Shown: in pieces, positions 10,001 through 52,500 of the stretch
Position numbering within the stretch: position 1 is the stretch's first letter
Layout of the letters: the number at the start of each line of letters is the position of its first letter
NCBI GenBank assembly: GCA_012295275.1
Contig: CM022667.1
Span: 5,580,001-5,644,000 of the forward strand
Length of the DNA: 64,000 bases
From: Chrysomallon squamiferum
Taxonomy: Eukaryota > Animalia > Mollusca
Reading direction: 5' to 3'
The notes under the pieces: model-generated
What the model was told of the DNA's origin: nothing
Seen by the model: only the letters and a program-made list of their open reading frames with translations
Database searches by the model: none
Translations under genes and position numbers: made by a program

Positions 10001-13000
10001 TGACATGGCAAAGTAATCAACTTTTATTCATATCCTATATTAATACAGTATAACATAACAGTATGTATATTTATCACAACACTCAATTAAATAAAGAAAT
10101 AAATAAAAAGCACTTAATATATTTGAAAATACAAGTTCAGTTTAGATCTCTCTTTCCCCTTCTTTGTGTGGGGGAGGGAGGGAAGGTGAAAGAAAGAATG
10201 AGTGTGTATGTGTGCTAACTACTACTGTCTAACAGTACTATCTCTGCCACTAAAAACAAAGGTAAATTTAGAGCATTACCTAACCATAATTTATACCTAT
10301 ATAAATTTATTATGAGCTAATTTTATATATACCTGCAACACAGTTAGAATTACAAATCATACGGCACATGATATTGACTATGCAGGTACAACAAATTACT
10401 CTCTGCATCCTACAAGCCAAACTAAGATGTAATATTATGGAAATTATGACCGACTCACTGCATTTCAACAGCTGAAAAACAGCCAGTGATGAGTGCTTCT
10501 TTAGTATCACAGGGAGAGAGTGTATACAGAATATGTAAAACAAACAAAAGACAGAATATGAATTGCAAATAACACAGAATATGAAACAGAGGCAAGTTGC
10601 AGATTACATACACTGTTTCAGTCAAGTTACTTATGACTGCTAACAAAATTTACAGATGCATAGCTAGAGGAGATGGAGATGAACATATTTAATGTAGCCA
10701 CTTTCACATAGACGTTGCTAGAGTATAAGCATCTAATGGCAAGCAGACAACCACAGCAGTCATCAAGAGCTCCATTTTCTATTTTTTTTTTTTTTTTTTT
10801 TTTAACTTTAAACCTTTTGATCTCTATACCATATATTTTGGTTTTATTGATACTATGAAGCAATAGTAAACTTTGTTCTGATTTTGACTGTACGAGAAGT
10901 GTTACTAATTATAAAGCAGTCAACAAAAATAATTAACAGACAACTTTATGAAAAGTGATATTAAATTAGATTGTTCATTCAATTGAGAACTGATATAATT
11001 ATTTTTATGTCAGCTGGTTCTTACTAACTGTTACCCTGATATGCTAACTACAAACTTTCAGTGTAAAATAAATATATTCTACATGTGCTCAAAGCTTCTA
11101 TTATTATTGTTCTTATTGTTCTATATGTTACAAGAAGATAGTGACTTACACTGAACATCCAAGGTAACAGTTTTGTTTTTTGACTTGTTTGTGTTTACAT
11201 TGGTGACAATACACACACAAACTCCAGCCTCTGTTCTGTGTATTTGTGTAAAAGAAAGTACAGCATCATTTATTTCCTTTGTCTGACACTTCCACTTGTA
11301 AGAGCAGACTTCATCACAGTCTGCCTCACACAAAACAGCCACGTTTTTACCTTCTACTATCTGTACTGGTGAACTTCTGTTCAGTTTAATGTTTTCTGGA
11401 CCATCTGAAAATGAAAATAAAATGTTTTCTGTATTAAAACTGTAGTAATGCACATCCATGTGTATCTGTGTCTCTGTTAATGAAGAAGGGAGAAATATTT
11501 TATTTAAGGTTTACCCTGACAAAGAAAGGACAAACAACAGTCTTTGAACAATCATTCATAAATTACTGCCTAGGAATGGATATGACACAATGGAAGTACC
11601 AAGTAAGTCTATACCTAGAAACTATAACATGTAAACATTTTGTGTACTTCCAAGAGATTGATCTGTGTTTTATTTGAAACTGAATTTTAATTAACAACAA
11701 AGTAAAATACCAAATGTAACCAGGTTCCAAATACCTGAAAGTTATGTTCTTTATAGCACTGAAAGCATTGACTACAAAGTGGACAAATTCTAATGTTCTT
11801 AAAAAAATGTTTTGTTTACATTGCAATATGTCATCAAATATATCTATAAGGAATTGTAGGCATTTCTGAACAAAGTTATTTATTATTATCCAGTTCTCTA
11901 ACAATCCTCTTTTAGTACAAAAATAAATTATAAAAACAAAATATTGCTGCTTCTACATACAACCTTGAATTTTTGAATTAATAATAGGACATTACCTCTA
12001 ACCCATAACCACTACTTCTATGAATATAAATAATAGTAATAATATAAAATAATTTGACAACATTGAAAAAAACTAAATATATATATATAATAATAATTTG
12101 ACAACATTGAAAAAAACTAAATATATATATATAATAATAATTTAGATCATTTATAAATAAATAAATTTCTAAGATTATTTTTAAACAAAACTCACAGTGT
12201 ACTTTGAGAGTGAAACTTTTAGTGAGAGATTTGGCTGAGACTCTGTTAGTCACAGTACATGTGTACTTCTGTCCTGTTTGGTTTCTTCTCACATTTGTAA
12301 CACTGAGCTCAGACCCTGACTCAGTCTGTTGATTGTTAAGAGACCAGGAAAACAAACATGGCGGCTTGCAGACAGCAGCACAGTTTACATTCAAATCATC
12401 TCCTTCTTCAATTTTTCCTGGTAAACTAAACACAACACTGTCTGGTCCACCTAAAAATAAAATAAAATAAAATAAATAAATAAATAATATAAATAATATA
12501 AACATAAACATAAACATGCACACTAAATACAGCACAGTCTCATCCACCTCAAATGGATTCTTTACTTACAACTTCTTGTAATCTAAGCATGTTTATATAT
12601 AAGATTCACTAATTTAAAATATTTCATCTTTTTTGCTACAAGTATCACTACAGCAGCATTACTCAAATTGTTATAAAAATATAATTATTTACTTACTGCT
12701 CATTTCTAATCTCAGTGTGTTATTGGACATTCCACCAGTATTCAGTTTACAAAACCAGTCTGTGACATCCTGATCTGAAGCTTTGTTAATTGTCAGAGAA
12801 TACTTCTTAGTGGTTGACAGTCTGCTGTTTGTCCCATCTCCACACTCTACAGAATAACTCTGTCTGTCAGCTGGAGAACTCCACACAGAACAGTTGCCTG
12901 AGTTCTGTCTCAGTGAACCAATACTAGAACTGGCATCATCTTTATAAAATATTATTAAGTCATCAAGATTTTCAGCACCTGACACTGTACAAATCAGAGT

Positions 13001-49500: not shown

Positions 49501-52500
49501 AAAACAGCCACGTTTTTACCTTCTACTATCTGTACTGGTGAACTTCTGTTCAGTTTAATGTTTTCTGGACCAACTGAAAATACCGATAAATTAATTAATA
49601 ATGATTGCTCTCTATATTAAAACACTGTACATGAATATGTGTGTGAAGGTGTGTGTTCCCAAAGAAGAGAGAAATGTTTTATTTGAGGATTATGATAACA
49701 AAGAAAAGAAAACAACATACTTTCAAGTGATTCATTTGTGTGTTATTTTTTGTTATTTGTTTTTACCAATTTTAAGTAACAAAGTAAAATGCATAAAAAG
49801 GGTTCAGCTACCAAGGATCTCGTACTGTTATTATTTGTAGCAGAGGAATACTCTATTAGAAAGTGGTCACATTTTATTGCTCTTTGAAAAATATTTTGTT
49901 TTAATGTGTTATCAAACATATTTTCAAGACCTTATATGCATTTCTAACAAAGACATACGCTAATATCCATTTCTCTAATAATCCTATTTTAATACAAATT
50001 AAACAAAAATCAGACTATTGCTGCTTGTGCAAATAACCTTGAACGTTTGGTTTTGCTTATGCAACTGTCAGTATGTCATCTTAATTAAACTCAGTTTGTA
50101 ATGCAAGAAAACTGAAATATGCAAATATTTTGTATCAATATTATTTTTTGTTTTATTTTGCATACAGCTATTACTGGTCATCTATCAACAACAACAACAA
50201 TAATAATATAAAATAATTTGACAACATACAAAAAATGAATTGAGATCAGTTATAAATAAATACATGTCTAAGATTATTTTTGAATAAAACTCACAGTGTA
50301 CTTTCAGAGTGAAACTTTTAGTGAGAGATTTGGCTGAGACTCTGTTAGTCACAGTACATGTGTACTTCTGTCCTGTCTGGTTTCTTCTCACATTTGTAAC
50401 ACTGAGCTCAGACCCTGACTCAGTCTGTTGATTGTTAAGAGACCAGGAAAACAAACATGGCGGCTTGCAGACAGCAACACAGTTTACATTCAAATCATCT
50501 CCATCTTCAACATTTCCTGGAGAAGTCAAGTCAACACTGTCTGGTCCACCTGAAAATTAAATAATCTTGATGATGATGATGATGATAATAATAATAGATT
50601 AATAATAATAACAATGTGATCTTTATAAGCATGAGAAATGCTGATTTTTTGAAGCTAATACTACAAATTAAACTTAACACTAGTATAAACTAAACTATTA
50701 AAAAACATAAACTCTGATTATTCTTATGTGTTTGTTTGGTGATCAGCTGTTTTACTCCTGTACAGGTAGTACTTATATTGTACACCTAACTATTTTTTGA
50801 TTCTTTAATAAAATAGCAAAATAAATATCAACTATATATGAGCTGATACAATTTTCTTTTCTTCTTTTCTTTGATCTTCTTGCAGTACTTGTAATTTATC
50901 AAAGAGGAATTGATATACTAGCAAAAAAAAATAAAAAAAAAAATAAAGTAATTAATAAATAATAATAATAATAATAAATAACATTAAAATAATTATAAAT
51001 AAAAACAATTCTTTTTTCCTTGTTCATTTTATTAAAACTGTACAAAGAAATGTATATTAACATTGTTCAAAAATATATACAATAAAAATGTCCAAGTATA
51101 TGTACATTAACACTGTAGAAAGAAATATATTTTTGCATTACACAGATGTATGTATATCAACATTGTATAAAGATATTTTCATTATAAAATAACCAATGTA
51201 TTGGTCATTTCTATTCAAAGCAAACAAAAATAGCAACACAAAACTGTACATGATAGTCTATGATCTTCACTTTTCATAATGATTATCACAATGATAATGA
51301 CAACAAACATAATAAAGAAATCTTAAAACAAATTATATTAATAAAAAAGTATGATTCTTCCAACATATTACAATTAAACTAAACTTGTACTGCTAATCAG
51401 ATACACTAAATTTAATTATTATAATTATCATTCACTGTTTCAGGGAATATAGTTAAAGTTTAATTTTTTTTTATGAATAGATTTTGTTTTCTTGCTATAA
51501 ATGATATTTTGTTATAAAAATATAATGATTTACTTACTGCTCATTTCTAATCTCAGTGTGTTATTGGAGATTCTACCAGTATTCAGTTGACAAAACCAGT
51601 CTGTGACATCCTGATCTGAAGCTTTGTTAATTGTCAGAGAATAGTTCTTAATGGTTGACAGTCTGCTGTTTGTCCCATCTCCACACTCTACAGAATAACT
51701 CTGTCTGTCAGCTGGAGGATTCCACACAGAACAGTTGCCTGAGTTCTGTCTCAGTGAACCAATACTAGAACTGCCACTATTGTTATAAAATATTATTAAG
51801 TCATCAAGATTTTCAGCACCTGACACTGTACAAGTCAGAGTAAACTGTTTGTCTTTGACTAAATGAGATGAAGATCCAGACAAAGTCAGTGAAACACAAT
51901 CTGTAAAATAAAAGATAAAATCTTTGTTTTCAGTATATTTTTGTTTCTCTGTTTTTCAGGTTTTCTTTTTTTACTTTTTAAACATTTTACTACCTATTTT
52001 TTTTTTTTTTTTTTTTTTTCGCTATATACATATTTTCTTTCATGATAATATTATTTTATTTGTAAGTGAAAATGTCATTGTTAAATAGCACATTCTGGTT
52101 GCTCTTAATAATTTTCCTTGAACATACAAAGGTAAAAATTCACAAGAGATTTAGAATTTGTTTTTCCTAATATAAAGGTATTTTCTAATTAATATATATT
52201 TTTTTTATCAAATGAAAAGATATGTATGAAACTTAAGACCTTATTTTTAATGTTGCATTTCACTGAACCAAATCAGAGACATAGATTACAAGTAGAAAGT
52301 GAAGTGATCAGAAAGTAGAGAACTTAAGTTGATGTTACTGACTAACGTAAATTAATTTTAAAAGCCGATGTTTACAATTTATGTTTTAATGGACACTGGT
52401 ATTTAGTGGGAATAACCCAGTGGGAGTTGTCCCCCTTCATACAAATTATTTCCTTAAACAAAATCCTGTTGAAAAAAAAAAATGAAAAAACATAATAAAC

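What the first reader, a model, noticed from the sequence alone, without database searches (positions are those of the whole stretch)
12697..51900. Four V-domain exons are patchworks of interchangeable short blocks at predicted loops
Frameworks are nearly invariant, but multi-codon blocks assort independently. After FY: KDDA (A) versus NNSG (B,C,E). After LRQ: NSGN (A,E) versus KPDQ (B,C). After SVW: SS (A,B,C) versus NP (E). After LNT: GGMSN (A), ARMSS (B), GGISN (C), GRISN (E). C and E have near-identical introns yet differ at these blocks, with E sharing A's block and C sharing B's. That conflicts with a simple tree and indicates segmental gene conversion or recombination generating combinatorial diversity. 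Most differences are non-synonymous and fall in the predicted C-C'-C'' region and FG loop, the usual V-domain ligand-binding face (inference).
Basis: partly seen in the sequence, partly recalled or inferred. Interest (0 to 1): 0.78.

Follow-up and report, generated by a model that had tools for sequence, protein, structure and literature searches.

The report
Snail receptor exons swap loop blocks
In what is likely a deep-sea vent snail, tandem immunoglobulin-type receptor genes keep near-identical exons between unrelated introns and carry different mixes of amino-acid blocks on the predicted binding face, likely through inherited gene conversion, a known way for receptors to diversify.

Summary
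The four exons and their blocks are real. They belong to a tandem array of receptors: leader, V-like Ig, four Ig, FN3, TM and an ITAM-like tail. The closest relatives are in the vent snail Gigantopelta aegis.

Gene conversion is well supported. A and E differ at 3 of 159 fourfold sites but 49 of 240 promoter bases, and their introns do not align. V nucleotides 30-198 group A+E against B+C, against the flanks. 18 of 22 variable residues lie in C-C'-C'' and F-G, and the same states recur in four other DNA runs.

Two of four blocks are single-copy states. Homogenisation covers all Ig exons, not just V. Whole-V dN/dS is about 1.0. C and E lie in near-duplicate segments either side of a 200-N gap and may be alleles. 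B is an orphan leader+V half-gene, and C has a stop after V. Nothing shows somatic diversification; expression is untested.

Verdict: CEACAM-like domain shuffling in an uncharacterised mollusc family.

The parts
12697..13059 (-). V-like exon of gene A (type-1 V domain)
15265..15340 (-). Leader exon of gene A; conserved promoter-like block upstream
5357..12450 (-). Gene A exons D2-D5 (Ig) and FN3, all open
1010..1156 (-). Candidate TM exon of gene A, unlike the TM of C, D and G; splice link to FN3 inferred
22160..22522 (-). V-like exon of B, an orphan half-gene with no D2 or later exon
24724..24799 (-). Leader exon of B, intact
20909..21872 (-). B deletion junction: A-like intron end (90%), microsatellite, then a C-like 3' flank (81% to 28830-29563)
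27820..28098 (-). Stub H of a type-2 V gene: leader-like exon and two copies of the acceptor plus first V codons, nothing further
29842..40128 (-). Gene C: leader 40062-40128, V 37178-37540, D2-D5, FN3, TM, three tail exons with ITIM-like and ITAM-like motifs; in-frame TGA at 35480-35482
37341..37509 (-). Tract in C's V exon (nt 30-198) where C matches B and differs from E and A at 10 informative sites
42660..45675 (-). Gene D, 3' half only (D5, FN3, TM, tail); counterpart of G; its 5' half is lost in the gap
46368..46567 (.). 200-N assembly gap between two near-duplicate segments (31501-46367 and 46568-59772)
46569..53423 (-). Gene E: leader 53357-53423, V 51538-51900, D2-D5, FN3, cut by the gap; counterpart of C
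56130..63552 (-). Gene G: type-2 V exon (63222-63552), divergent D2 and D3, then D4, D5 and FN3 like A/C/E (1-nt deletion in FN3), TM and ITAM-like tail

Best explanation
The four exons encode the outer V-like domain of tandem Ig-FN3 cell-surface receptor genes, and inherited gene conversion between neighbouring copies likely keeps the exons near-identical while moving short amino-acid blocks on the predicted binding face from copy to copy. Shown: the gene anatomy; exon identity that stops about 20 nt into the introns; exon/flank discordance; the position of the variable residues in the sequence. Inferred: conversion as the copying mechanism; selection favouring change on the C-C'-C''/F-G face; binding of microbial or self ligands; signalling through the YxxL-x7-YxxL tail to a Syk-type kinase. 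It would work like CEACAM N-domain shuffling in primates, over generations and not within an animal.
For: Neutral-site contrast: A/E differ at 3 of 159 and A/C at 4 of 158 fourfold sites over V-D4, against 49 of 240 and 42 of 208 promoter bases (Fisher p 5e-9 and 1e-7) and 79-82% identity between non-C/E leader pairs. A's introns align to C/E at 51-56%. Ten AE|BC sites (five separate events, three synonymous) oppose the flanks; 0.1-0.4 are expected from parallel mutation at assumed 2-4% branches. The B/C/E run test gives p 0.012-0.031. G has a different V type and D2/D3 only 46% identical, yet its D4 differs from A at 1 of 40 fourfold sites. Window copies form one group apart from G. aegis in the V, D4, D5 and FN3 trees. 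18 of 22 variable residues fall in the 48 face positions, p=1e-5, and the same region is the most variable among 16 G. aegis V domains, p=8e-6. Ten of the 24 variant rows that I mapped carry a base seen in A, B or E, and loose ends show further C-C' blocks that begin like A's KDD block. C vs E: 12 of 279 non-synonymous sites differ in V against 12 of 1057 in D2-FN3, p=0.001.
Against: Only four V copies, two possibly allelic. Sites inside blocks are not independent: at block level 7 of 10 lie on the face (p about 0.05, by hand). Whole-V pN/pS is 1.0, and face pN/pS of 2.6 is not significantly above neutral (p=0.14). D5 and FN3 show pN/pS from about 0.4 to 1.8 between paralogues. B is truncated, C has a stop and G a frameshift, so relaxed constraint could add changes. 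No DNA of other whole loci, no GENECONV or PAML run, no solvent-exposure values, and no expression or ligand data.
Confidence: 0.75

Rival explanations
1. C and E (and D and G) are two haplotypes of the same loci, placed in tandem at a scaffold gap. The C/E contrast is then allelic polymorphism. This can hold together with the best explanation, since A and B lie on C's side of the gap.
For: A duplicated segment of about 14 kb ends exactly at both edges of a 200-N gap, with D and E each cut by it. The C/E gene bodies differ by 0.4-4% in most 500-nt bins. False duplications at contig ends are described in PMC8081667 (passages).
Against: The D/G part differs by 4-10% per bin, which is high for alleles. 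The two-gene cassette (type-2 gene then type-1 gene) recurs on one side of the gap as D-C and H-B, so true tandem copies do arise here.
Confidence: 0.45
2. Recent duplication plus relaxed constraint and parallel mutation, with no exchange between copies.
For: Whole-V pN/pS of 1.0; several broken copies.
Against: It cannot give about 2% neutral divergence in exons beside 20% in promoters and unalignable introns, nor 10 sites sharing one discordant split.
Confidence: 0.07
3. The mosaics are assembly chimeras of collapsed near-identical exons.
For: High-copy exon: 59-86 short contigs per run lie on 651 bp. An assembly gap lies inside the array.
Against: Each exon is only 363 nt within distinct introns. 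The individual states recur in other runs. The exon/intron contrast repeats at six exons.
Confidence: 0.08
4. A somatic or splice-based diversity system: B serves as a V donor for conversion within an animal, or as an alternative leader+V cassette spliced onto A's constant exons.
For: B keeps a promoter-like block, an intact leader, an open V exon and a phase-1 donor, and lies upstream of A in the same orientation. C's rare tract matches its neighbour B.
Against: B's shape is explained by a plain deletion. One donor is no library. The variants are shared between animals. There is no transcript evidence.
Confidence: 0.06

Closest known systems
Gigantopelta aegis Ig-FN3 receptor expansion (NCBI labels such as CEACAM5-like, nephrin-like, hemicentin-like; e.g. 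P0002, P0006, P0011, P0036)
   Same: Same domain order, both V types, and the same TM and tail type as C, D and G. D4 is 55-82% identical, V type 1 is 40-52%, V type 2 up to 56%. Many relatives lie on one 53.4-Mb chromosome. PMC7895826 names a 'CEACAM5' family as expanded (one figure-legend passage seen); that it is this family is my inference from the labels.
   Different: Window V copies are 87-94% identical to each other, against a mean of 63% among G. aegis V domains. I found no study of conversion or function in this family.
Primate CEACAM1/3/5/6 N-domain shuffling (PMC8860441, passages)
   Same: Within-species clustering of paralogous domains, shared synonymous changes, conversion that reshuffles an N-terminal V-like domain, and tyrosine-motif tails.
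   Different: Not shown to be homologous. This V keeps four cysteines, the protein has an FN3 domain, homogenisation covers all exons, and no ligand is known.
Hydractinia Alr family (PMC9546547, passages)
   Same: Clustered genes and pseudogenes with an unusual V domain, I-set domains, an Fn3-like domain, TM and ITAM/ITIM tails.
   Different: Alr V domains mostly lack the core disulfide, which is kept here. Four inner Ig domains here. Sequence homology and allorecognition not tested.
Oyster CgIgR (PMC6994640, passages)
   Same: Mollusc receptor with five Ig domains, TM and an ITAM that recruits Syk.
   Different: No FN3 described in the passages seen; not described there as a converting tandem array; homology not tested.
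Biomphalaria FREPs (PMC11999971, passages)
   Same: Variable mollusc IgSF domains, diversified by point mutation and recombination.
   Different: FREPs carry a fibrinogen domain; these genes have FN3, TM and a signalling tail. Somatic change is not shown here.

Membership tests
V-set Ig domain | B-F strand disulfide cysteines | tested here: met
   C23 and C103 on predicted strands B and F; Cys in 150 and 161 of 169 aligned stretches
V-set Ig domain | C' and C'' strands, V-type fold | tested here: met
   Model pLDDT 84.7 with strands 33-39, 44-52, 55-60; top matches mostly VH/VHH domains, best Z 9.0, rmsd 2.9 over 92 residues. Z is middling.
V-set Ig domain | C-strand tryptophan and tyrosine corner | tested here: not met
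   Phe at 37 in 145 of 169 and Trp at 101 in 159 of 169; two extra conserved Cys at 56 and 72
V-set Ig domain | Pfam V-set profile match | tested here: inconclusive
   No PF07686 hit; generic PF00047 passes its cut-off in 3 of 4 copies; V-set clusters among Atlas neighbours at 0.92
CEACAM family | N domain without disulfide, followed by IgC domains only, no FN3 (definition recalled) | tested here: not met
   Four Cys in V; FN3 exon hits PF00041 at E 2e-10
ITAM-bearing receptor | Yxx[I/L]x(6-9)Yxx[L/I] in the tail (consensus from PMC9546547) | tested here: met
   YxxL-x7-YxxL in the last exon of C, D and G; not found for A; E's tail is lost in the gap
ITAM-bearing receptor | Phosphorylation and Syk/Shark binding | not testable with these tools
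   none
Concerted evolution by ectopic gene conversion | Shared synonymous sites in tracts, discordance with flanks, sharp borders | tested here: met
Concerted evolution by ectopic gene conversion | Non-reciprocal transfer, as opposed to double crossover | not testable with these tools
   needs pedigrees or many phased haplotypes
Receptors under diversifying selection | dN/dS significantly above 1 at binding sites | tested here: inconclusive
   face 20 N: 2 S, ratio 2.6, p=0.14 against neutral; rest 4 N: 5 S; face vs rest p=0.012
FREP/VIgL | C-terminal fibrinogen or lectin domain | tested here: not met
   Exons after the Ig domains are FN3, TM and tail
Somatically diversified receptors (chicken-type V conversion, FREPs) | V sequences in somatic cells that are absent from the germline | not testable with these tools
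   only assembled contigs of other runs were seen
Hydractinia Alr | Sequence homology and linkage to allorecognition | not tested
   architecture compared from the paper only

The most novel reading that the evidence does not exclude
A mollusc receptor locus in which orphan leader+V half-genes such as B act as a working repertoire: as conversion donors that refresh the binding loops of ITAM-signalling receptors, possibly within an animal's lifetime, or as alternative V cassettes spliced to a shared constant region, tuning recognition of vent bacteria or symbionts.
Probability: 0.07. Interest if true: 0.85.

Novelty: new member of a known kind. Interest (0 to 1): 0.4.

Why it matters
It points to a large, uncharacterised family of ITAM-tailed V-domain receptors in peltospirid vent snails, a family that includes species housing bacterial endosymbionts. 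The family shows the evolutionary signature of primate pathogen-binding CEACAMs, and the variable face gives a short list of residues to test for microbe or symbiont binding. The mechanism itself, conversion among tandem receptor genes, is well known, so the surprise is moderate. It would be high only if B-type cassettes are used somatically or by splicing.

Tried and rejected
No whole genome is held for the window, so other copies in this assembly could not be counted. A word-based protein search with V alone against longer proteins found nothing, while D4 and the HMMER profile (171 hits at E<=0.001) did. The wide VIA-align search was not run; only Foldseek and the second look at its own hits. 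Contig depths (shared framework contigs about 10-25 times deeper than single-variant ones) hint at many copies but are not a copy number and cannot settle C/E allelism. Earlier scan findings: none by place or by sequence. Open frames at 16.8-19 kb gave no meaningful Pfam hit (6 tested). Rejected: 'four freely assorting blocks', V-specific conversion, dN/dS above 1 for the whole V exon, and filing the genes as CEACAMs or FREPs. Rows left out: G's frameshifted FN3 from the tree; G. aegis domains covering under 80% of the query. The FN3 tree is the quick one. One search hid 19 variant rows, and I mapped 24 of its 40 shown rows (those inside the exon). The species was not determined.
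Full report
Observation. The four stretches are 363-nt minus-strand exons with AG/GT ends. There are 31 variable nucleotides, clustered more than chance by two of three measures. The description needs correcting. KDDA occurs only in A and NP only in E, so neither conflicts with a tree of four. Of 12 informative sites, 10 support AE|BC and span nt 30-198; nt 325 and 330 give the two other splits.

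Gene anatomy. Each V exon heads a gene with a leader, four further Ig exons, an FN3 exon, a TM exon and tail exons. In the direction of transcription the array reads G, E, gap, D, C, H, B, A. G has a second type of V domain and D2/D3 only 46% identical to C's, but D4-FN3 like the others. D is the 3' half of a G-like gene. H is a stub of a G-like gene. B has a promoter-like block, leader and V, then a deletion joining an A-like intron end to a C-like 3' flank. C has an in-frame stop at the second codon after V, and G has a 1-nt deletion in FN3. The tails of C, D and G carry an ITIM-like SxYxxL and a YxxL-x7-YxxL motif that fits the ITAM consensus quoted in PMC9546547. All splicing is inferred from splice signals and from G. 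aegis protein models; no transcript was seen.

Relatives. All 30 hits to D4 are Gigantopelta aegis proteins, 55-82% identical, so the window likely comes from another peltospirid vent snail; the species was not determined. A V profile finds 171 proteins. Of 20 looked up, 15 are G. aegis, 3 unnamed, and 2 are weak hits from other taxa. The family keeps four cysteines, Phe in place of the C-strand Trp, and Trp at the tyrosine corner. The model (pLDDT 84.7) has C, C' and C'' strands and matches antibody V domains at Z 8-9: V-like, not a canonical V-set sequence.

Evidence for conversion. A is an old paralogue of C and E: leaders 81-82% identical, promoters 80%, introns 51-56% in forced alignments. 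Yet over V-D4 it differs from E at 3 of 159 and from C at 4 of 158 fourfold sites (p 5e-9 and 1e-7 against the promoters), and identity ends about 20 nt outside the V exon. The same exon-limited blocks appear at all six exons. G's D4 differs from A's at 1 of 40 such sites. Window copies group apart from G. aegis in the V, D4, D5 and FN3 trees, although G shares its V and tail type with G. aegis P0002 and P0011. Inside V, five separate AE|BC events oppose the flanks, against 0.1-0.4 expected by parallel mutation under branch lengths I assumed. A B/C/E run test gives p 0.012-0.031. In four other DNA runs the A/E base is the usual one at the three synonymous sites of the tract, so the rare form is the one shared by neighbours B and C; a B-C exchange is the simplest reading (inference).

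Where the variation lies. 18 of 22 variable residues fall in positions 33-61 and 101-119 (48 of 120; p=1e-5), or 7 of 10 when counted as blocks. Residues 36, 102 and 104 alternate with core residues and likely point outward (inference; no exposure values). The same region is the most variable among 16 G. aegis domains (4.3 vs 2.6 states per column, p=8e-6). Other runs show K39, N60/P61, A108, R109, M110 and S112 again. They also show more divergent C-C' blocks, read by hand from loose ends as KDGGNVTLA and KDDGIVSFA, which suggests that A's KDD start comes from a wider pool. Against a strong selection claim: whole-V pN/pS is 1.0; the face (20 N, 2 S) exceeds the rest (4 N, 5 S; p=0.012) but not neutrality (p=0.14); D5 and FN3 reach similar ratios between paralogues.

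Assembly caveat. Segments 31501-46367 and 46568-59772 are 4.8% divergent and end at the two edges of a 200-N gap. This pattern fits false duplication of haplotypes (PMC8081667, passages). C/E gene bodies differ by 0.4-4% in most bins and D/G by 4-10%. True tandem copies of the two-gene cassette also exist (D-C, H-B). I put allelism at 45%. It changes the count of loci, not the A/B/C evidence.

Mechanism. Tandem duplication made the array. Exons stay alignable while introns turn over, so non-allelic repair likely copies exon-sized or shorter tracts between neighbours. This homogenises frameworks and moves loop blocks; selection by changing ligands likely keeps loop variants. Deletions leave half-genes such as B that can still donate sequence. 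Ligand binding and ITAM signalling are inferred by analogy to oyster CgIgR and CEACAMs.

Known versus new. It works like CEACAM N-domain shuffling (PMC8860441) but is not a CEACAM. Its architecture recalls Hydractinia Alr. PMC7895826 lists a 'CEACAM5' expansion in G. aegis in one legend. Term searches inside two other peltospirid genome papers (PMC7736800, PMC7142155) found no mention of CEACAM or immunoglobulin. Nine library searches listed no paper on conversion in this family. I saw matched passages of nine papers (PMC7895826, PMC9546547, PMC11999971, PMC10875847, PMC8860441, PMC8081667, PMC7736800, PMC7142155, PMC6994640), no whole text and no supplements; the supplements of the genome papers may describe the family.

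Verdict. A real feature, partly over-read by the first stage: a new member of a known kind. Interest 0.4; the donor-cassette or somatic reading has about 7% probability and would deserve 0.85.

Noticed in passing
window 63524-64000 and 27820-27977: A 108-bp unit holding the splice acceptor and first ten codons of the type-2 V exon is repeated 4.5 times upstream of G's V exon and twice in stub H, giving decoy acceptors followed by stops.
   Followed up: partly
window 35480-35482: In-frame TGA at the second codon of C's D2 exon; C is a pseudogene or makes a secreted leader+V product.
   Followed up: partly
window 31010-31130: C's predicted TM segment contains a glutamate where D and G have hydrophobic residues.
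   Followed up: no
window 1010-1156 and about 770-800: A's candidate TM differs from that of C, D and G, and a downstream IxYxxL (ITIM-like) stretch may give it an inhibitory tail, hinting at paired activating and inhibitory receptors with shared ectodomains. Splicing untested.
   Followed up: no
window D5 and FN3 exons of A, C, D, E, G: The last 40 nt or so of these exons are far more divergent than the rest, as expected where conversion tracts stop before a diverged intron.
   Followed up: partly
window 16500-19500: Higher-GC insert (34-37%) between B and A with short open frames; possibly a decayed mobile element; no Pfam hit of note.
   Followed up: partly
window 58025 region and 47390 region: 1-nt deletion in G's FN3 exon; in-frame 3-nt deletion in E's D5 exon.
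   Followed up: partly
P0013, P0039, P0045, P0054, P0062 (G. aegis): Relatives shuffle V type 1, V type 2 and C2-like modules in many orders; P0013 fuses SRCR repeats to the Ig-FN3 stalk.
   Followed up: no
window 23378-23654 and 25090-25311: 20-bp (14 copies) and 114-bp (2 copies) tandem repeats in B's first intron and promoter region.
   Followed up: no
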